Program-made: the position numbers and the translations under genes
Assembly: GCA_963757635.1 (NCBI GenBank)
Contig: CAVWSK010000006.1
Coordinates: forward strand, 263,613-327,612
Reading direction: 5' to 3'
Source: an uncultured Actinomycetota bacterium
GTDB lineage: Bacteria > Actinomycetota > Actinomycetes > Actinomycetales > Dermatophilaceae
DNA length: 64,000 nucleotides
In this document: positions 17,641 through 58,562 of the stretch, piece after piece
Numbering within the stretch: the stretch's first letter is position 1
How the letters are laid out: each line of letters starts with the position of its first letter
Notes under the pieces: generated by a model
Database searches by the model: none
What the model was told of the DNA's origin: nothing
What the model saw: the letters and a program-made list of their open reading frames with translations, nothing else

Positions 17641-19175
17641 GCCGCCACCGGTCCCTGGGAGCGCAGGGTCAGGGCTGTGCCGAGGTCACCACGCGTGGGG
17701 GTCGTGCGTCCTGCCAGGTCGGCGACGGTCCACCCGAGCCGGAGCACGCGGTCGTAGCCGCGCAGGGTGAGCTGCCCACGGTCCAGCGCGGCGTCGATGT
17801 CGCACGTGACCCGAGGCGGCAGCCGCCAGCGGCCCCGGCGGACGCAGGGACCCGGCGCCTCGCTGTTGAGCGACCAGGGCGTCGCCTGCCAGCGCTCGGC
17901 CTGCACCTGGCGCGCCTCGAGCACGCGCGCAGCGACCACCGCGCTGGACTCCCCCGCCTCACCGGCGAGCGAGGACCGGGTGACCGCTGGCACCTGCACC
18001 TGGAGGTCGACCCGGTCGAGCAGCGGACCGGACAGGCGCCCCACGTAGGCCCGCTTGGCCGTCGCCGAGCAGGAGCACCCCACCCCCTTGCCGAAGCCGA
18101 GACCGCAGGGGCAGGGGTTCGCCGCCATCACGAGCTGGAACCGGGCAGGGAACCGCACTGCGGCCCGGGCGCGGGCCACCACCACCTCCCCGGACTCCAG
18201 GGGCTGGCGCAGGGCCTGCAGTGCTCCGTTGCGGAACTCGGGCGCCTCGTCCAGGAACAGCACGCCGTGGTGGGCCTGCGAGATCGCGCCCGGCCGAACG
18301 GCGCCGCTGCCGCCACCGATGATGGCGGCCTGTGAGGCGCTGTGGTGCGGGGCGACGAACGGCGGCACCCCCTCGACCTCGAGCTCGTGGGCGGTGACCC
18401 CCAGCAACGAGCGCACAGCCAGCACGTCGATCGACTGGGCCCGAGTCAGCCTCGGCAGGATCGAGACCAGCCGCTCGGCGAGCATGGTCTTGCCCGAACC
18501 GGGCGGGCCCAGGAGGAACACGTGGTGGCCGCCGGCGGCGGCCAGCTCCAGCGCCTTGCGCGCCTCTTCCTGCCCCACGACGTCGGCGAGATCGGGCACG
18601 GGTCGCGCCTCGACGGGACCTGTGGCCGAGGTCTCGACGGGCTCGGCGCCCAGCGCCTGGGCGCCGCCCTGGTAGGCGGCGATGAGGTCGCCCAGGTGGC
18701 GCACGGCATGGACGCGGATGCCCGGCACGAGTCGTGCCTCGGCGGCGTTCGCCTCCGGGACGACCACCTCCCGGCACCCGTCCCGGGCGGCGCAGAGCAC
18801 CGCCGGGAGGACGCCTCGCACCGCCCGGATGCTGCCGTCGAGGCCCAGCTCGCCCACGTGCACGATCTCGCGGACGCGCTCGGCGGGAGCCAGTGCCAGG
18901 GCGGTGACCACGGCGATGGCGATCGGCAGGTCGAACCCGCTGCCGTTCTTGGGGATCGAGGCCGGGGAGAGGTTGACCGTGATGCGGTCCTGGCTGAGGG
19001 ACCGGCCGATGCTGGCCGCCGCAGCCTTGACCCGGTTGGGCGACTGCGCGCACGCCGTGTCCGGGAGCCCGCCGACCATGAAGGCCGGCAGGCCTCCGGA
19101 CAGGTGCGCCTCGACCTCGACCACGGTGCCCGCGAGACCTTCGAGGGTGACCGAGCGGGTGCGCCCGAACGTCAC
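17637..19175 (-). CDS. comM: YifB/ComM family Mg-chelatase-like AAA+ ATPase
   Basis: GLPD, NLSPA, FDLPIA, GELGLDG, GPPGSGKT, AHHGVLFLDE, NPCPCG, SGPLLDRVD. Confidence 0.93.
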   Translation of the reverse strand: MTFGRTRSVTLEGLAGTVVEVEAHLSGGLPAFMVGGLPDTACAQSPNRVKAAAASIGRSLSQDRITVNLSPASIPKNGSGFDLPIAIAVVTALALAPAERVREIVHVGELGLDGSIRAVRGVLPAVLCAARDGCREVVVPEANAAEARLVPGIRVHAVRHLGDLIAAYQGGAQALGAEPVETSATGPVEARPVPDLADVVGQEEARKALELAAAGGHHVFLLGPPGSGKTMLAERLVSILPRLTRAQSIDVLAVRSLLGVTAHELEVEGVPPFVAPHHSASQAAIIGGGSGAVRPGAISQAHHGVLFLDEAPEFRNGALQALRQPLESGEVVVARARAAVRFPARFQLVMAANPCPCGLGFGKGVGCSCSATAKRAYVGRLSGPLLDRVDLQVQVPAVTRSSLAGEAGESSAVVAARVLEARQVQAERWQATPWSLNSEAPGPCVRRGRWRLPPRVTCDIDAALDRGQLTLRGYDRVLRLGWTVADLAGRTTPTRGDLGTALTLRSQGPVAA

Positions 19176-19543
19176 GACCCGACCCCCTCGAGGTGGCGCA
19201 CGACGGCAGGACCGGCAGCGGGACGCAGGATGCCGATCACGTCGATGCGGATCCGGTCCGGGTGCACCTCGTGGGCCTGCAACCAGGCCGCGGCGAGGCG
19301 CCGCAGTCGCGCGGCCTTGCGCCGGTCGACCGCCTCGACCGGGGCCCCGAAGCGCTCGGTGCGCCGGGTCTTGACCTCGCAGAACACCAGGCAGTCGCCG
19401 TCACGGGCGATCAGGTCGATCTCGCCGTGGACGCAGCGCCAGTTGCGCTCCACCACCTCCAGTCCGTGCTCCTGCAGGTAGCGCGCTGCCAGCCGCTCAC
19501 CGTACTCACCGAGGGCGCGTCGCGCCCGCGTCGCCTCTCCCAT
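19172..19543 (-). CDS. yraN: YraN family nuclease (UPF0102)
   Basis: GEYGERLAARYL, RNWRCVHGEIDLIA, VFCEVKTR, RIDVIG. Confidence 0.93.
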   Translation of the reverse strand: MGEATRARRALGEYGERLAARYLQEHGLEVVERNWRCVHGEIDLIARDGDCLVFCEVKTRRTERFGAPVEAVDRRKAARLRRLAAAWLQAHEVHPDRIRIDVIGILRPAAGPAVVRHLEGVGS

Positions 19544-19603: not shown

Positions 19604-19645
19604 GGGCTGTGGACGAGGTACCCAGGCTGCGCAGGGCTGTGGACG
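19604..19645. repeat. Perfect 12-bp direct repeat GGGCTGTGGACG x2 upstream of yraN-comM-dprA
   Basis: Copies at 19604-19615 and 19634-19645, 30 bp apart. Confidence 0.8.
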
Positions 19646-29438: not shown

Positions 29439-29504
29439 GCGCGCATTCTCGCTCATCCCCGCGGTGGGGCCGCATCCAGCATCCGAGACATAACCTTGTG
29501 TTAC

Positions 29505-29553
29505 TTGACCCATAACTCATGGATGCACAAACTCCTATACGTCAGATCGGAAT
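29505..29553 (+). promoter_or_regulatory. Probable sigmaA-type promoter of the TauE gene with an overlapping palindromic operator
   Basis: TTGACC(29505-10)-17 nt-CAAACT(29528-33); imperfect palindrome ACTCCTAT-N7-ATCGGAAT (29531-29553). Confidence 0.6.
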
Positions 29554-29575
29554 ACCGCCTCCCGGAAGCCAGCCC

Positions 29576-45843: not shown

Positions 45844-48800
45844 TCAGGCGCTCTGCGCCGCCACGTCGCGGATGCGCTGCGACACGACCGTGGTGACCCC
45901 GTCGCCACGCATCGACACGCCGTAGAGCGCGTCGGCGACCTCCATGGTGCGCTTCTGGTGGGTGATGACGATGAGCTGGCTGGAGTCGCGCAGCTCCTCG
46001 AAGAGGGTGATGAGGCGACCGAGGTTGGCGTCGTCGAGCGCCGCCTCGACCTCGTCCATGATGTAGAACGGGCTGGGCCGCGCCTTGAAGATCGACACGA
46101 GCAGCGCCACCGCCACCAGGGACCGCTCACCACCGGAGAGCAGCGAGAGCCGCTTGATCTTCTTGCCCGGCGGTCGCGCCTCCACCTCGATGCCCGTGGT
46201 GAGCATGTCGGAGGGGTCGGTGAGCAGGATCCGCCCCTCGCCACCGGGGAACAGCCTGGAGAACACCTGCTCGAACTGCGCCGCCGTGTCGTGGAAGGCC
46301 TCGGTGAAGACCCGCTCCACCCGCTCGTCGACCTCGCGGACGATGTCGAGCAGGTCACGCTTGGAGCTCTTGAGGTCCTCGAGCTGGTCGGTGAGGAACT
46401 TGTGGCGCTCCTCCAGCGCGGCGAACTCCTCCAGGGCCAGCGGGTTCACCCGGCCGAGGGCCGACATGGCCCGCTCGGCCTTGCGCAGCCGCTTCTCCTG
46501 GACCTCGCGGACGTAGGCCTCGGGCTGGGGAGCCTCCTCCGGGTCGTCGTCCGGTCCGGGCACGAACGGCACCGGCTGGTGGGGCCCGAAGTCCTCCATG
46601 AGCACCTGCGGGTCCATGCCGAGCTCGTCCACGGACCGGGCCTGCATGGCCTCGATGCGCAGGCGCTGCTGCGTGCGGGCCACCTCGTCGCGGTGGACCG
46701 TGTCGGTGAGGTCGCGCAGCTCGTCCTGCAGGACGGTCACCTCGCGCCGCACCTGGGCCAGGGCCTGGTCGCGCTCGCTCCGGGCCGCCTCGGCCCGGCT
46801 GCGCTGGCTCGCGGCGGTGTCGAGGGTGGACGCGATGAGCGACGAGGCGTATGCCGCCCCGCGCAGCACGGCCTCGGCCACCGTCGCCTCCCGCCGCCGC
46901 CGCTCCTGGCGGGCTGCCAGCCGCTCGCGTGCCGCGAGCTCGTTGCGGGCTGCGCCCTCGAGGGAGTCAGCGCGACCCTTGAGGGCGCGGGCCCGCTCCT
47001 CCCTGGTGCGCAGGGTCAGGCGCAGCTCGGTCTCGGCGGCCCGGCCACGGCTCGCGTCCTGCTCGAGGCGGTCGCGCTCGTCGGTGCTGGGGTCCTGCGA
47101 CTCGGTGGGCTCGGCGCTGGCCTCGTCGAGGCGCTGGGCGAGCTCGTCGAGCTCGGTGCGGTCGGCGTCGACCGCCGCCGTCGCGTCGGCGATGCTGCGT
47201 TCGGTGCGCTCGGCCTCGGCCTTCGCGGAGCGGACGGTGGCGCCGAGGTGGCCGAGCCGCTCGGCGACCGCGGCCATCTTCGCGTCGGACTCGTGCAGGC
47301 GCTCCAGTGCGCCCTCGACCTCGTCGGCGGCGGCGCGGTGCCGCTCCTGCGCCGCCGTGAGGGCGAACCGGGCCTGCTCACCGCGCCGGCTGGAGTCCGC
47401 GAGGCGGTCACGGGTCTCGTCCACGGCCGACTGGATCTCGATCAGGCTCGGCGCGTGGCTGCTGCCGCCACGGACGAACCCGGGCGCGAAGACGTCACCG
47501 TCGGTGGTGACCGCGGTGATCCCCTCACCCCGGGCGACCAGGGCTGCGGCCAGCGCGGGATCGGAGACCAGGGCCACCCGGTCGAGCAGCTGCTCCACGG
47601 CAGGACGCACCGTCGCGGGCGCCTGCACGACCTCGCGGGCCCAGACCGCCGACCCGTCCAGCGTCGGCCAGGTGGCCGGGTCGCTCGTGGCCGCGCTGGG
47701 GCCGACGAGGAAGGCCGCGCGGCCGGAGTCGTCAGCCCGCAGCGTCAGGAGTGCTCGGGCGGCGTGGTCGACCGACTCGACCGCCAGGGCGTCACCGGCC
47801 CAGCCGAGGGCTGCGGCGATGGCCGCTTCGTGGCCGCCCTTGACCTGCAGCAGCGAGGCGACCGAACCGACGATGCCGTGGCTGGAGTCCGCGGCGGCCA
47901 GCAGGGTCGCTGCGCCGTCCTTGCGGGACAGGCTCAGCTCGAGGGCCTCCAGGCGGGCGGTGGCACTGGTCCGGTCCCGCTCGGCCAGCCGCTCGGCCTC
48001 GCGGTGCTGCTCGACCTCGGCCTCGACGGCCTCGAGGGCTGCTGCGGCCCTCTCGTAGGCACTGTCGAGGCCCTCCTCGCCCTCCTCGTCGACGGCCACC
48101 GAGGCCTCGAGGGTGGTGAACTCCTTCTCGGCGGCGGCAGCCCGCTCCAGCGACTGCGCCACGATCCCGCGCAGCCGGCCGATCTCGGCCTCGCCCGCCT
48201 CGATGCGGCTGCGACGCGCGCCCACCTGGCCCGCGAGCTTGGCCAGCCCCTCACGGCGATCGGCGGCCGCGCGGACCAGGCGTTGCAGGCGCTGCTGCTC
48301 CGCGGCATACGCCTGCTCCGCGGTCTCACGAGCGGCAACCGCCGCGCTGAGGGCCGTCGTGGCCTCGCCGACCTCGGCGAGGAGGGCGGCCTCCTGCTTG
48401 CGCGCCTCGAGGGCCTGGGCGCGCAGCTCCTCGGGGTCGCGACCGCTGGTCTGCTCGTCCTGGGTGTCCTGGCCGAGCAGCCGCACCCGCTCGGCGGCGA
48501 GTGACTCGGTCGCGGTGAGCTGGTCGCGCAGCTGCTGCAGGCTGAACCAGCGCTCCTGCGCCCGGCTGAGCTCGGGCGCGGCGTCCTGGGCCTGCTGCTC
48601 GAGGGAACCCAGCCGGCTGCGCAGGGTGACCAGCCCCTCCTCCAGCTCGGTGCGCTTGGCGATGAGGGCGCTCTCGTCGGCGACCTCCTGCTCGAGGGTG
48701 GACGTCAGCTGGACGAGGTCGTCGGCGAGCAGTCGCAGGCGGGCGTCGCGGGCGTCGGCCTGGATCACGGCGGCGCGACGGGCTGCCTCGGCCTGGCGTC

Positions 48801-49416
48801 CGAGTGGGCCGAGCTGGCGGCGGATCTCACCGGTGAGGTCGTTGACCCGGGTGAGGTTGGCCTCCATCGACTCGAGCTTGCGCAGCGCCTTCTCCTTGCG
48901 CTTGCGGTGCTTGAGGACGCCGGCAGCCTCCTCGATGAAGCCGCGCCGTTCCTCGGGGGTCGCCCGCAGCACCGCGTCGAGCTGTCCCTGCCCGACGATG
49001 ACGTGCATCTCACGCCCGATGCCGGAGTCCGAGAGCAGCTCCTGCACGTCGAGCAGCCGGCAGGACGTGCCGTTGATGGCGTACTCCGAGCCACCGTTGC
49101 GGAACATGGTCCGCGCGATGGTGACCTCGGTGTAGTCGATCGGCAGGGCGCCATCGGTGTTGTCGATGGTCAGCGCGACCTCGGCCCGGCCCAGGGGGGC
49201 GCGGCCGGCGGTGCCCGCGAAGATGACGTCCTCCATCTTGCCGCCGCGCAGGCTCTTGGCCCCCTGCTCCCCCATGACCCAGGCGAGCGCGTCGACGACG
49301 TTGGACTTGCCGGAGCCGTTGGGGCCGACGATGCAGGTGATACCGGGCTCGAGACGCATCGTGGTCGCGGAAGCGAAGGACTTGAAGCCCTTCATGGTCA
49401 GGCTCTTGACGTACAC
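45844..49416 (-). CDS. smc: Chromosome segregation protein SMC
   Basis: KGFKSF, GPNGSGKSN, coiled coils, hinge GGS, LSGGE, DEVEAALD, ITHQK. Confidence 0.98.
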   Translation of the reverse strand: MYVKSLTMKGFKSFASATTMRLEPGITCIVGPNGSGKSNVVDALAWVMGEQGAKSLRGGKMEDVIFAGTAGRAPLGRAEVALTIDNTDGALPIDYTEVTIARTMFRNGGSEYAINGTSCRLLDVQELLSDSGIGREMHVIVGQGQLDAVLRATPEERRGFIEEAAGVLKHRKRKEKALRKLESMEANLTRVNDLTGEIRRQLGPLGRQAEAARRAAVIQADARDARLRLLADDLVQLTSTLEQEVADESALIAKRTELEEGLVTLRSRLGSLEQQAQDAAPELSRAQERWFSLQQLRDQLTATESLAAERVRLLGQDTQDEQTSGRDPEELRAQALEARKQEAALLAEVGEATTALSAAVAARETAEQAYAAEQQRLQRLVRAAADRREGLAKLAGQVGARRSRIEAGEAEIGRLRGIVAQSLERAAAAEKEFTTLEASVAVDEEGEEGLDSAYERAAAALEAVEAEVEQHREAERLAERDRTSATARLEALELSLSRKDGAATLLAAADSSHGIVGSVASLLQVKGGHEAAIAAALGWAGDALAVESVDHAARALLTLRADDSGRAAFLVGPSAATSDPATWPTLDGSAVWAREVVQAPATVRPAVEQLLDRVALVSDPALAAALVARGEGITAVTTDGDVFAPGFVRGGSSHAPSLIEIQSAVDETRDRLADSSRRGEQARFALTAAQERHRAAADEVEGALERLHESDAKMAAVAERLGHLGATVRSAKAEAERTERSIADATAAVDADRTELDELAQRLDEASAEPTESQDPSTDERDRLEQDASRGRAAETELRLTLRTREERARALKGRADSLEGAARNELAARERLAARQERRRREATVAEAVLRGAAYASSLIASTLDTAASQRSRAEAARSERDQALAQVRREVTVLQDELRDLTDTVHRDEVARTQQRLRIEAMQARSVDELGMDPQVLMEDFGPHQPVPFVPGPDDDPEEAPQPEAYVREVQEKRLRKAERAMSALGRVNPLALEEFAALEERHKFLTDQLEDLKSSKRDLLDIVREVDERVERVFTEAFHDTAAQFEQVFSRLFPGGEGRILLTDPSDMLTTGIEVEARPPGKKIKRLSLLSGGERSLVAVALLVSIFKARPSPFYIMDEVEAALDDANLGRLITLFEELRDSSQLIVITHQKRTMEVADALYGVSMRGDGVTTVVSQRIRDVAAQSA

Positions 49417-49575
49417 GAGCTCTCTTCGCTCCTGGTGACGGCGGTCGGTGCGGGTCGGCAGATCGCGGCTCACTGTACCGGCGCGGGGCCGGCCACCCGC
49501 GAACCCCGACGGCGCCACACCGCATACCGGTGCGCCTGTGGCCCCTGTGACTCCAGAGGCACCCCACCCCCGCCG

Positions 49576-49666
49576 CAACTTTATCGGGTCTAGCAGGAAG
49601 GTTGACCTTCGCACGGCTATCGAAGTCGGGTGAAGGTCAACCTTGTCACTAGACCCGATAAAGTTG
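49576..49666. repeat. Nested inverted-repeat element (REPIN/MITE-like)
   Basis: Perfect 18-bp outer arms CAACTTTATCGGGTCTAG/CTAGACCCGATAAAGTTG; perfect 13-bp inner arms AAGGTTGACCTTC/GAAGGTCAACCTT; AT-richer than its surroundings. Confidence 0.9.
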
Positions 49667-49711
49667 GGGTCCTGGTTGGTGGGGTGGGGCCGGGCGATCG
49701 CGGTGGACTGC

Positions 49712-50008
49712 TCAGCCTTGGGCGATGGCCTCGTGGTGGTGGATGACCTCGGCGATGACGAAGGTCAGGAACTTCTCCGCGAAGGTCGGGTCGAGCCCGG
49801 CCTCGTCGGCCAGCGCCCGCAGCCGACCGATCTGCGACTCCTCGCGCGCGGGGTCGGCGGGCGGCAGCCCTTGCTGGGCCTTGAGCTGGCCCACCTGCTG
49901 GGTGCACTTGAAGCGCTCGGCGAGCAGGTGGATCAGGGCAGCGTCGATGTTGTCGATGCTGGCGCGCAGGCGCACCAGCTCGGAGGGCGTCGAGGCGGGC
50001 TGGGTCAC
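49712..50008 (-). CDS. Chorismate mutase (AroQ type II)
   Basis: LRASIDNIDAALIHLLAERF, VGQLKA, DPAREESQI. Confidence 0.9.
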   Translation of the reverse strand: MTQPASTPSELVRLRASIDNIDAALIHLLAERFKCTQQVGQLKAQQGLPPADPAREESQIGRLRALADEAGLDPTFAEKFLTFVIAEVIHHHEAIAQG

Positions 50009-57630: not shown

Positions 57631-58113
57631 TCAACCACCCCACACGGCCGGGCTGCGGCGCCGGGCCAGGTCCTCGCCGAGCCCGGCGAGCTCGACGAAC
57701 CTCGCGAGGGTGGCGTGCATCGTCTCGACCGCCTCGGGGCCGGCCTGCTCACTGAGTCGGCGGTCGATCCGGACACCGATCTCCGCCGCTGCGGCCATCG
57801 CCCTCCGTCCGCGCGGGGTGAGTGAGAGGAGCTTGGCCCGGGCGTCGCTCGCGGAGTCCCTGCGGCGCACCAGCCCGAGCTCGACCATCTCCTCGACGAC
57901 CTTGGCCGCCGCCTGCTTGGTGACACCCAGCCTCGCGGCGAGCTCGGTGAGCCGCAGCGGTCCGTCGCGCAAGGACCGGAAGACGACCCCGAACGCAGGA
58001 CGGACGTCGGCGAAACCCTGCTCGTCGAGCTCGCTGTGGAGCTGGTCGACGAAGCCTCGCAGGGCGAGGGTCAGGAGGATCCCCAGGTCGGCCGGGCTGC
58101 GGGACTCATTCAC
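57631..58113 (-). CDS. MarR-family transcriptional regulator
   Basis: LTELAARLGVTKQAA, GLVRR, DARAKLLSLTPRG. Confidence 0.9.
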   Translation of the reverse strand: MNESRSPADLGILLTLALRGFVDQLHSELDEQGFADVRPAFGVVFRSLRDGPLRLTELAARLGVTKQAAAKVVEEMVELGLVRRRDSASDARAKLLSLTPRGRRAMAAAAEIGVRIDRRLSEQAGPEAVETMHATLARFVELAGLGEDLARRRSPAVWGG

Positions 58114-58127
58114 TATTGCTCCAAACG

Positions 58128-58167
58128 GTCAGTCATGGTTGACTACTTTTCGTCAACTCTAGTTGAC
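58128..58167. promoter_or_regulatory. Two 16-bp palindromic operators (GTCA-N6-GTTGAC) between the divergent marR and cupin genes
   Basis: GTCAGTCATGGTTGAC at 58128-58143 and GTCAACTCTAGTTGAC at 58152-58167. Confidence 0.7.
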
Positions 58168-58187
58168 CATATCTCAAGGAGCCACTC

Positions 58188-58562
58188 ATGCCAGTCCTCA
58201 CCCGCCCCACAGCGTCCACCCACGCACTCACCGGGGCGCAGTTCACCTCGCTCGCCACCCCCTCGTCCGGCAGCCTCGACACCGCCATCTGGGAGGTGCG
58301 GCTCGCCCCGGGCCACGAGGGCGCCCCCCACCGCCTGACCCGGCAGGAGGTCTTCGTGGTGCTCTCCGGGGAGGGGGTGGCCACGCTCGACGGCGAGCCC
58401 CACGCGGTGGGGGCCGGGTCGGTCATCGTGGTGCCGGTCGCGACGCCGTTCTCCCTCGCCGCCGAAGGGTCCGAGGAGCTCGTGGCCCTCTGCTGCCTGC
58501 CGGTCGGGGGGCAGGCCGTGGTGGACGGCGCCGAGCCCTTCACGCCGCCCTGGGCCGAGTGA
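58188..58562 (+). CDS. Cupin-domain protein
   Basis: PHRLTRQEVFVVLSGEG, AVGAGSVIVVP; AAGGAG RBS. Confidence 0.85.
   Translation: MPVLTRPTASTHALTGAQFTSLATPSSGSLDTAIWEVRLAPGHEGAPHRLTRQEVFVVLSGEGVATLDGEPHAVGAGSVIVVPVATPFSLAAEGSEELVALCCLPVGGQAVVDGAEPFTPPWAE

What the first reader, a model, noticed from the sequence alone, without database searches (positions are those of the whole stretch)
49562..49689. Nested palindromic element upstream of smc: REPIN-like doublet or mini-insertion at a CTAG
Seen: perfect 18-bp outer arms (49576-93 and 49649-66) both contain CTAG at their inner ends. Inside are two inverted copies of a short palindrome, GAAGGT-TG-ACCTTC (49597-610) and GAAGGT-CA-ACCTT (49632-44), and a small apical stem CGGCT/AGTCG. 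CCCCACCCC/GGGGTGGGG flanks extend it. It is clearly AT-richer than the genome, and smc has its own TACAGT -10 (49477-72) downstream. Established: REPINs are inverted doublets of short tagged palindromes mobilised by RAYT transposases, and several IS5-family elements duplicate CTAG. Inference: either a non-autonomous mobile element, or a 55-bp insert with a CTAG duplication at the centre of a 32-bp palindrome. Alternatives are a structured sRNA or a twin operator.
Basis: partly seen in the sequence, partly recalled or inferred. Interest (0 to 1): 0.7.

Follow-up and report, generated by a model that had tools for sequence, protein, structure and literature searches.

The report
Hairpin repeat linked to nuclease cassette
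The palindrome upstream of smc is one copy of a dispersed, insertion-polymorphic hairpin repeat of soil actinobacteria, and its sequence matches the two ends that bracket a conserved gene for a DNA-binding nuclease, which points to a repeat-plus-enzyme partnership I could not find described.

Summary
Window 49573-49669 is a 97-nt near-perfect hairpin with perfect 18-nt outer arms. It has 53.6% GC in a 72.5% GC window, and its folding z-score is about -9 to -10.

It is neither specific to smc nor unique:
- Orthologous chorismate-mutase/smc spacers in close relatives lack it.
- At least 11 other loci in soil and rhizosphere actinobacterial contigs carry homologous copies. Their outer arms are invariant and their inner stems covary. 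They usually lie 7-46 nt after a stop codon, between C-rich and G-rich flanks.
- No target duplication, no empty GGGTCTAGACCC palindrome and no Rfam family was found.

The same arm and hairpin sequences bracket a single syntenic gene (hemQ -> X <- msrB) in Phycicoccus, Pedococcus, Janibacter and a MAG. The gene encodes an AbiEi-like winged-helix domain fused to a Vsr/DUF559-type endonuclease, and the layout is arm-hairpin-gene-hairpin-arm. The window element equals those two ends joined without the gene.

Distant homologues in Kribbella and Marmoricola sit at other loci. They keep the same architecture with entirely different arm and hairpin sequences.

Best reading: a non-autonomous, REPIN/MITE-like derivative of a nuclease cassette. 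The cassette protein probably recognises it. Locally it probably acts as a hairpin terminator or insulator between the chorismate mutase gene and smc. Mobilisation by the nuclease is inferred, not shown.

The parts
49573..49669 (-). Conserved core of the repeat: outer arm, inner hairpin, outer arm. The family's weakly asymmetric 'canonical' orientation is on the - strand, the same strand as the chorismate mutase gene and smc.
   Evidence: Inverted repeat I1. nhmmer family profile scores 94.1 bits on the - strand and 83.0 on the + strand. Homology with other copies in metagenomes ends at 49572-76 and 49663-71.
49576..49593 (.). Left outer arm CAACTTTATCGGGTCTAG. It contains the family-invariant half-site TTTATCGGGT.
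   Evidence: Most outer-arm base pairs (cols 7-21 of A4) are invariant in sequence across 8 copies. The same sequence lies at the left end of the nuclease cassette.
49649..49666 (.). Right outer arm CTAGACCCGATAAAGTTG, the exact reverse complement of the left arm.
   Evidence: The same sequence lies at the right end of the nuclease cassette.
49594..49648 (.). Inner hairpin module of subtype 1 (GGTTGACCTTCAC...). Stems are about 49597-49618 and 49624-49645, with the loop at 49619-49623. The sequence varies between copies but the pairing is kept.
   Evidence: Eight stem pairs show compensatory double changes, 94.5% of cells are paired, and 0 of 500 shuffles reach the covariation score. It is 71-85% identical to hairpins A and B of the Phycicoccus-type cassettes.
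49562..49570 (.). Outer flank CCCCACCCC. It pairs with 49681-49689 and is part of the extra DNA at this site relative to the empty sites.
   Evidence: (I5). A C-rich 5' flank and a G-rich 3' flank are seen at every copy and at every cassette. The extra DNA relative to empty sites is about 130 nt, which is more than the core.
49681..49689 (.). Outer flank GGGGTGGGG. The same GGGGTGGGG motif recurs on the G-rich side of cassettes L061 and L064.
49712..50008 (-). Chorismate mutase gene (CM_2). Its stop codon lies 43 nt upstream of the core, so the element sits at this gene's 3' end.
   Evidence: Pfam PF01817, E = 1.4e-23.
49466..49556 (-). Conserved smc leader and promoter block, including the TACAGT box at 49477-49472. 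It lies downstream of the insertion and was not disturbed by it.
   Evidence: Alignment with orthologous loci L003-L005.
45844..49416 (-). smc gene. The GTG start at 49416 is assigned by homology with the relatives.
   Evidence: Pfam SMC_N and SMC_hinge; alignment A2.

Best explanation
The nested palindrome is one copy of a dispersed, non-autonomous palindromic repeat family of Intrasporangiaceae-type actinobacteria. In this lineage it entered the spacer between the chorismate mutase stop codon and the conserved smc leader.

Structurally it equals the two termini of a roughly 1.2-kb cassette joined together. The cassette reads arm, hairpin, gene, hairpin, arm. The gene encodes an AbiEi-like winged-helix DNA-binding domain fused to a Vsr/DUF559-type PD-(D/E)XK endonuclease.

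Proposed mechanism (inferred):
1. The cassette protein recognises the invariant arm half-site TTTATCGGGT through its winged-helix domain.
2. It nicks or cuts at or near the extruded hairpin.
3. Hairpin units are thereby copied or moved in trans, the way RAYT acts on REPINs. Alternatively each dispersed copy is what remains after recombination between hairpins A and B deleted the gene, like a solo LTR.

For the host, the very stable hairpin 43 nt after the chorismate mutase stop most likely acts as a U-tract-less, two-way transcription barrier or 3'-end stabiliser that insulates the chorismate mutase gene from smc.

Shown: the family, its dispersal, presence/absence polymorphism, identity with the cassette ends, co-variation of subtypes, recurrence of the architecture in distant homologues, and the protein fold.

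Inferred: binding, cleavage, mobilisation and terminator activity.
For: 1. Insertion polymorphism. Orthologous spacers in L004 and L005 (chorismate mutase 89-90% identical) are 151-153 bp and lack the element, while the smc leader is conserved.

2. Dispersal.
- Homologous copies occur in unrelated contexts: amidohydrolase/solute-binding protein in L002 and L023, next to a tRNA in L026/L027, next to whiB in L031/L015, and others.
- Two copies lie on one 3.6-kb contig.
- In metagenomes X1 and X3 about 10 contigs each match the core with unlike flanks. Depth over the arm is about 9-fold and about 7-fold that of the flank.

3. Pattern of conservation. The outer arms are invariant in sequence, while the inner stem covaries: 8 pairs with double changes, 0 of 500 shuffles. 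This is the pattern expected for sequence-specific recognition of the arms plus a structural hairpin.

4. The cassette. In L038, L059 (Phycicoccus sp.), L061-63, L064 (Pedococcus bigeumensis), L065 (a MAG) and L066 (Janibacter) the gene sits at the same hemQ -> X <- msrB locus. It is bracketed by the arm and hairpin sequences even though protein identity to the L038 protein falls to 44-53%.

5. Subtypes co-vary. Both Phycicoccus-type cassette ends and the dispersed copies W, L002, L010, L021 and L026b share subtype 1. Both Pedococcus cassette ends and the dispersed copies L026a and L035 share subtype 2.

6. Generality. Kribbella (L067, 35% identity, pepA locus) and Marmoricola (L068, 34%, lpdA/sucB locus) have 84-87-nt terminal inverted repeats with the same arm + hairpin architecture but unrelated sequences.

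7. The protein.
- Pfam finds AbiEi_4 and DUF559.
- The motifs ES..GE, RVD, EFDG..KY and EK.RE are invariant.
- The AlphaFold2 model has mean pLDDT 92.4.
- Foldseek matches AbiEi 6y8q at the N-terminus. At the C-terminus it matches the homing endonuclease I-Bth0305I catalytic domain 3r3p (TM-score 0.75 on the target), PvuRts1I/AbaSI and NGO0050.

8. Gene-less forms. Metagenome contigs join the cassette's left arm to its right arm and skip the gene (joints 141->1243 and 155->1241).
Against: - No biochemical or genetic evidence links the nuclease to the repeats.
- I could not scan any whole genome. Copy number per genome, and co-occurrence of gene and repeats within one genome, including the window's own, are untested.
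- Within Intrasporangiaceae the cassette was seen at only one locus. A single ancient insertion of the gene into one pre-existing repeat copy could explain that locus.
- Contig L026 carries both hairpin subtypes, which weakens a strict one-enzyme/one-repeat co-evolution.
- Only one copy lies in the 64-kb window, and none besides the cassette ends in 20.9 kb of Phycicoccus. The family is therefore sparse, not REP-like in abundance.
- Compensatory changes in a DNA palindrome can arise by arm-to-arm conversion without selection.
- Terminator function is untested. There is no U-tract, and the one RNA run had no coverage of the spacer.
Confidence: 0.6

Rival explanations
1. The link with the nuclease gene is historical, not functional. 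The repeat family spreads, or once spread, by some other means. A selfish or homing-type AbiEi_4-DUF559 gene simply inserted once into one copy lying between hemQ and msrB, duplicating the inner hairpin. The window element owes nothing to that protein.
For: In Intrasporangiaceae the gene is always at the same locus. The C-terminal domain resembles a homing endonuclease. The hairpin duplication borders coincide roughly with the CTAG junctions.
Against: - The same arm-hairpin-gene-hairpin-arm layout recurs with unrelated sequences at two other loci in Kribbella and Marmoricola.
- Both cassette ends change subtype together and match the dispersed copies of that subtype.
- The arm half-site stays intact at the cassette while protein identity falls to 44-53%.
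Confidence: 0.15
2. It is a classical REPIN mobilised by a RAYT (Y1/HUH transposase) encoded elsewhere in the genome.
For: It is an extragenic hairpin doublet with no target duplication and sits at gene 3' ends. RAYTs are single-copy and could lie outside the DNA I could read.
Against: - There is no GTAG or CGTC tag.
- The short inner palindromes are not conserved.
- The gene that these sequences flank is not a Y1 transposase.
- The library search returned no paper describing REPIN/RAYT systems in Actinobacteria.
Confidence: 0.06
3. It is an IS-derived MITE, or a 55-bp mini-insertion with CTAG duplication inside a 32-bp palindrome.
For: Terminal inverted repeats are present. CTAG sits at both arm/hairpin junctions. 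In L065 and L066 the arms exist as closed palindromes separate from the hairpin.
Against: - There is no direct target duplication.
- Homology breaks lie outside the CTAGs.
- None of the 39 arm hits is an empty GGGTCTAGACCC site.
- Some copies read CAAG, CATG or CCAG instead of CTAG.
- No transposase gene was seen next to any copy.
Confidence: 0.07
4. It is purely a host regulatory element: an RNA hairpin (terminator, attenuator or sRNA), or a pair of operator half-sites for a transcription factor controlling smc.
For: The hairpin is extremely stable. It lies just after stop codons at most loci. The arm sequence is conserved like a protein-binding site.
Against: - It is absent from orthologous smc leaders, so it is not part of smc control in general.
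- It occurs in unrelated contexts and in either orientation relative to the upstream gene.
- There is no Rfam family and no U-tract.
- A secondary terminator role is not excluded, and it is part of the best explanation.
Confidence: 0.1

Closest known systems
REPIN-RAYT systems (Bertels & Rainey, PMC3116915; Bertels et al., PMC5581495)
   Same: Both have dispersed extragenic hairpin-forming repeats without target duplications. Both have a single-copy, vertically inherited, syntenic gene bracketed by the same repeat sequence. In both, the gene-flanking and dispersed copies evolve in concert.
   Different: The flanked gene is a winged-helix + Vsr/DUF559 PD-(D/E)XK nuclease, not a Y1/HUH transposase. 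There is no GTAG/CGTC tag. The host is an actinobacterium. The repeats are sparse: one in 64 kb here. Mobilisation is not shown.
Bacterial MITEs such as Correia/NEMIS, ERIC/RU and others reviewed in PMC10969869 and PMC3184786
   Same: It is about 100-130 bp, has terminal inverted repeats, folds into a long hairpin, is intergenic and insertion-polymorphic, and looks like an internally deleted version of a larger gene-carrying unit.
   Different: There is no target site duplication. The parent unit carries no recognisable transposase (DDE, serine, tyrosine or HUH). The flanks are compositionally constrained, C-rich on the 5' side and G-rich on the 3' side.
IS200/IS605 family architecture (from my own knowledge)
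   Same: The gene is bounded by subterminal hairpins, there is no target duplication, and a hairpin rather than a simple inverted repeat is the recognisable end.
   Different: There is no TnpA (Y1) or TnpB. The two ends here are also inverted repeats of each other.
AbiEi antitoxin of the type IV AbiE system (PDB 6y8q)
   Same: The N-terminal part of the cassette protein matches AbiEi by Pfam (AbiEi_4) and by fold. AbiEi binds inverted repeats in DNA (my own knowledge).
   Different: There is no AbiEii nucleotidyltransferase partner; the neighbours are hemQ and msrB. The C-terminal half is a nuclease domain instead.
I-Bth0305I / Vsr-like (EDxHD) homing endonucleases (PMC3239194, PMC2677866)
   Same: The catalytic domain has the same fold (3r3p, TM-score 0.75 on the target), with a separate DNA-recognition module.
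   Different: The gene is not inside an intron or intein. It is free-standing, hairpin-flanked and chromosomal at a fixed locus.

Membership tests
REPIN/RAYT | Two REP units in inverted orientation that form a hairpin | tested here: met
   46-nt arms, 83% complementary. The family consensus has 34 pairs with 94.5% of cells paired.
REPIN/RAYT | REP unit is a conserved 20-40-nt imperfect palindrome with a GTAG or CGTC tag (PMC3733652) | tested here: not met
   No GTAG or CGTC head is present. The short inner palindrome GAAGGTTGACCTTC is not conserved in subtype 2.
REPIN/RAYT | Repeats flank a Y1/HUH (RAYT) transposase gene | tested here: not met
   The flanked gene hits AbiEi_4 and DUF559 and has an AbiEi + Vsr-like nuclease fold.
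REPIN/RAYT | Tens to hundreds of copies per genome | not testable with these tools
   No whole genome could be scanned. There is 1 copy in the 64-kb window and 2 on a 3.6-kb contig. Depth excess in metagenomes is about 7-9-fold.
IS-derived MITE | Terminal inverted repeats and small size | tested here: met
IS-derived MITE | Direct target site duplication | tested here: not met
   Flanks of 14 aligned copies show no direct repeat, only complementary C-rich and G-rich flanks.
IS-derived MITE | Ends match those of an autonomous element encoding a transposase | tested here: inconclusive
   The ends match a gene cassette. Its product is a nuclease with no known transposase activity.
Intrinsic (Rho-independent) terminator | GC-rich hairpin followed by a U-tract | tested here: not met
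   The scan finds no terminator-like site in 49350-49800. The sequence after the stem is G-rich.
Any Rfam RNA family | Score at or above the family's gathering threshold | tested here: not met
   Only sub-threshold matches to generic miRNA-precursor hairpins (29.6 bits against a threshold of 100). There are no gathering-level hits in the window or the cassettes.
AbiE type IV toxin-antitoxin system | AbiEi antitoxin encoded next to an AbiEii nucleotidyltransferase toxin | tested here: not met
   The neighbours are hemQ and msrB, pepA, or lpdA and sucB. No AbiEii is present.
Vsr-like/EDxHD homing endonuclease | Vsr-like catalytic fold with conserved acidic and lysine residues | tested here: met
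   Foldseek hits 3r3p, 3hrl and 4oq2. E198, E202, D234, E245, D247, K251, E263 and K264 are invariant.
Vsr-like/EDxHD homing endonuclease | Resides in an intron or intein, or homes into a cognate empty allele | tested here: not met
   The gene is free-standing and intergenic, at the same locus in all six Intrasporangiaceae-type contig sets.

The most novel reading that the evidence does not exclude
AbiEi_4-DUF559 proteins form a large actinobacterial family of unknown function: 6,407 clusters at 50% identity with E <= 1e-3. They may be the enzymatic partners of lineage-specific hairpin repeats. That would be a second, independently evolved REPIN-RAYT-like replicator, one that uses a winged-helix-guided Vsr/PD-(D/E)XK nuclease instead of an HUH transposase. 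The smc-upstream palindrome would be one of its non-autonomous offspring.
Probability: 0.3. Interest if true: 0.9.

Novelty: new variant of a known kind. Interest (0 to 1): 0.7.

Why it matters
If the link holds, three things follow.
1. It gives a first functional hypothesis, with a concrete DNA substrate, for the widespread AbiEi_4-DUF559 proteins that are currently annotated as antitoxin-domain or hypothetical proteins.
2. It extends the idea of a vertically inherited repeat-plus-enzyme replicator beyond Proteobacteria and beyond HUH transposases.
3. It identifies a movable, very stable hairpin that lands right behind stop codons in high-GC actinobacteria, whose terminators are poorly understood. 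Such a hairpin could rewire read-through between neighbouring genes, here the chorismate mutase gene and smc.

Even on the minimal reading, it is a new dispersed repeat family. It is useful for strain typing and as a warning for assembly breaks in soil actinobacterial metagenomes.

Tried and rejected
- Rfam search at permissive and at gathering thresholds found only generic miRNA-hairpin noise.
- The sigma-70 promoter and terminator scan found nothing.
- The genome-contig scan with the 18-mer arm gave one true relative (L002) and one chance hit (L001).
- In the metagenome scan with CTAGACCCGATAAAGYT, 14 of 39 hit loci carry true copies. The rest are AT-rich chance hits with a single arm.
- Viral-contig scans for the window arm found 14 single-arm hits, none of them a true copy of the element (5 reached only weak nhmmer matches to one arm), and scans for the Kribbella and Marmoricola arms found none.
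- The plasmid collection holds no copy of the element. The gene has only a distant Collinsella hit there.
- RNA evidence failed. The only RNA run holding related sequence has no contig over the spacer.
- Look-ups of P0001 and P0126 found nothing on record.
- The window holds no homologue of the cassette gene by tblastn.
- A GTCCACAG-type motif is not enriched in the window as a whole.
- I considered parS, dif and GlnR-type sites from memory and dropped them, because the sequences do not resemble them.

Full report
**Observation.**
- Window 49576-49593 (CAACTTTATCGGGTCTAG) and 49649-49666 are exact reverse complements.
- The complete inverted repeat runs 49573-49618 / 49624-49669: 46-nt arms, 83% complementary, 5-nt loop. 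It is the longest close inverted repeat in the 64-kb window.
- With its CCCCACCCC and GGGGTGGGG flanks it folds at -82 to -93 kcal/mol, z about -9 to -10.
- The core has 53.6% GC against 72.5% for the window.

**Context, all on the - strand.** The gene order is rnc, fpg, a small ORF, chorismate mutase (49712-50008), the element, smc (45844-49416), ftsY. The chorismate mutase is 82-87% identical to those of Pedococcus, Intrasporangium and Knoellia. This places the organism near the Intrasporangiaceae.

**It is an insertion, not part of the smc control region.**
- Three orthologous loci were fetched through close chorismate mutase homologues (88-90% identity). L004 and L005 have 151-153-bp spacers without any trace of the hairpin. 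L003 has an unrelated filler.
- All three share with the window a conserved block ending in CCGGTACAGTGAGC, just upstream of smc.
- The extra DNA in the window is about 130 nt. It comprises the core plus the C-rich and G-rich flanks, and it lies between the chorismate mutase stop and that conserved block.

**It belongs to a dispersed family.**
- The arm 18-mer found a homologous element, about 85% identical, in an uncultured Actinomycetota MAG. There it lies between an amidohydrolase gene and a solute-binding-protein gene.
- A metagenome scan with one arm gave 39 hit loci, of which 14 carry true copies at about 11 independent positions. These include a site next to a tRNA gene, sites next to a whiB-like gene, and two copies 526 bp apart on one contig.
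- Most copies lie 7-46 nt behind a stop codon.
- In two metagenomes that also contain a near-identical relative of the window strain, about ten contigs each match the core and then run into unlike flanks. Homology breaks at 49572-76 and 49663-71. Depth over the arm is about 9-fold and about 7-fold that of the flank.
- The flanks are never conserved in sequence, but they are always C-rich on the 5' side and G-rich on the 3' side.
- No direct target duplication is present. No hit shows the empty palindrome GGGTCTAGACCC.
- No Rfam family matches. There is no U-tract terminator. There are no plasmid or viral copies.

**Anatomy of the family.**
- In eight full-length copies, most outer-arm base pairs are invariant in sequence.
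- The inner stem keeps its pairing through changes: 8 pairs with double changes, 94.5% of cells paired, and 0 of 500 shuffles reaching the covariation score. Slid controls collapse to 29-45% paired.
- A small conserved asymmetry next to the CTAGs (GGAGAA on one side, TTCCTG on the other) gives the element a weak polarity. By that polarity the window copy is on the - strand.
- Polarity relative to the upstream gene is mixed across loci. This argues against an oriented RNA motif and for either-way insertion or a symmetric function.
- Compensatory changes in a DNA palindrome can also come from arm-to-arm conversion. The covariation therefore shows that the hairpin is maintained, not that it acts as RNA.

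**The nuclease cassette.**
- On contig L038 the left arm plus a complete inner hairpin is followed by a 315-codon gene. The gene is followed by a second inner hairpin plus the right arm.
- The protein has an AbiEi_4 domain and a DUF559 domain. The motifs ES..GE, RVD, EFDG..KY and EK.RE are invariant. The AlphaFold2 model is confident, with pLDDT 92.4.
- The N-terminal part of the model matches the AbiEi antitoxin (6y8q). The C-terminal domain matches the catalytic domain of homing endonuclease I-Bth0305I (3r3p, TM-score 0.75 on the target), the PvuRts1I and AbaSI nuclease domains, and NGO0050.
- Orthologues with 93% down to 44% identity are all at the same locus, hemQ -> gene <- msrB. They come from Phycicoccus sp., three JGI contigs, Pedococcus bigeumensis, a MAG and Janibacter sp. 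All are bracketed by the arm and hairpin sequences.
- In the MAG and in Janibacter the arms appear as closed palindromes beside the hairpin: TTTATCGGGTcACCCGATAAA and ATATCGGGTcACCCGATAT. This shows that TATCGGGT is a palindromic half-site held constant while the protein diverged by half.
- The window element equals left end + right end of this cassette with the gene removed. Metagenome contigs laid on the cassette show exactly that joint.

**Coupling between cassette and dispersed copies.**
- The inner hairpins fall into two subtypes. Both ends of the Phycicoccus-type cassettes and the dispersed copies W, L002, L010, L021 and L026b are subtype 1, at 71-85% identity. Both ends of the Pedococcus cassette and the dispersed copies L026a and L035 are subtype 2, at 76-89%.
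- The two ends of a cassette and the free copies therefore change together.
- Two distant homologues sit at other loci: Kribbella sp. (35% identity, behind pepA) and Marmoricola sp. (34%, between lpdA-like and sucB). They have 84- and 87-nt terminal inverted repeats built in the same way, arm + hairpin on each side. In Kribbella each end is a complete nested palindrome. Their sequences are entirely different.
- The architecture is thus a property of the gene family, not of one locus.
- The family is large: 6,407 clusters at 50% identity with E <= 1e-3 and 2,194 with E <= 1e-10.
- The searchable library holds no paper with both DUF559 and AbiEi. None of the 25 papers that mention DUF559 deals, by title or abstract, with repeats.

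**Interpretation.**
- The most economical reading is a non-autonomous, REPIN/MITE-like derivative of a hairpin-flanked nuclease cassette.
- By analogy with REPIN-RAYT (PMC3116915, PMC5581495), I propose that the winged-helix domain reads the arm half-site and the Vsr-like domain nicks at the hairpin. This would let hairpin units be copied. A solo-LTR-like origin, in which a full cassette inserts and hairpin-by-hairpin recombination then removes the gene, is an equally compatible sub-variant.
- These mechanistic steps are inferred.
- For the host, a hairpin of this stability 43 nt after the chorismate mutase stop and upstream of the conserved smc promoter block probably blocks read-through or protects the 3' end. 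This is also inferred.
- The main rival is that the gene merely inserted once into one copy of an unrelated repeat family. It is weakened by the Kribbella and Marmoricola cassettes and by the subtype co-variation, but it is not excluded.
- A true RAYT, an IS5-type MITE and a purely regulatory RNA or operator each fail at least one defining test (see the membership table).

**Limits.**
- No whole genome could be scanned, so copy number per genome and gene/repeat co-occurrence are unknown.
- The window's own cassette, if it exists, lies outside the 64 kb.
- No usable transcript data exist for this spacer.

Noticed in passing
L038 200-290; L059 9900-9990; L061, L064, L065, L066, L067 2940-2960; L068 2918-2950; window 19606-19643 (- strand): Every cassette has two copies of a (G)TCCACAG(G) motif in the leader between hairpin A and the start codon. 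In the window, CGTCCACAGCC occurs twice, 30 nt apart, just upstream of a 123-codon ORF (19172-19543, - strand). By its N-terminal sequence I take that ORF to be a YraN-like nuclease, but this was not checked. The motif is not enriched in the window overall. It may be a shared promoter or operator of nuclease genes.
   Followed up: partly
L038 1207-1244 and orthologues (alignments A5 and A6, C-terminus): The nuclease ORF runs into hairpin B and stops inside it. The hairpin therefore encodes a conserved, low-confidence C-terminal tail (NVDLHPGSKVG, pLDDT < 50).
   Followed up: partly
L010 330-350 and 475-520; L026 1520-1565; L031, L035, L040 flanks: A short motif GCGGCATACCCC / GGGGTATGCC recurs near several elements, sometimes as an inverted pair around them. 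It may be a second small repeat or a common terminator stem in these genomes.
   Followed up: no
L066 2708-2820 and 4066-4105: The Janibacter cassette is preceded by tandem C-rich repeats (CCCCTTCCCCCAGCCCCCACGCCCC, 3-4 copies) and followed by a complementary G-rich stretch. This exaggerates the C-rich/G-rich flanks seen at every copy. What produces these flanks is unexplained.
   Followed up: no
window 29471-29567; L002 1760-1850; L023 1240-1320: This AT-rich stretch of the window (49.5% GC) shares blocks with the region upstream of the solute-binding-protein gene in L002 and L023: GAGACATAA, GTGTTAyTTGACC.ATAAC and CAAACTCCTA. It is probably a conserved operator/promoter used at different genes.
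   Followed up: no
window 58106-58202: This is the most AT-rich 97 nt of the window (46.4% GC). It holds three closely spaced GTTGAC/GTCAAC motifs (GGTTGACTACTTTTCGTCAACTCTAGTTGACC) just upstream of an ATG, and looks like an operator-rich promoter.
   Followed up: no
L003 3300-3450: At the same chorismate-mutase/smc spacer, another relative carries about 100 nt of unrelated extra sequence. This spacer seems to tolerate or attract insertions.
   Followed up: no
L008, L015, L031, L042: A truncated variant has the left arm and inner hairpin but no right arm. It lies between a gene end and a convergent whiB-like gene. L008 and L015 share the right flank but differ on the left, which suggests rearrangement or assembly joins at the repeat.
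   Followed up: partly
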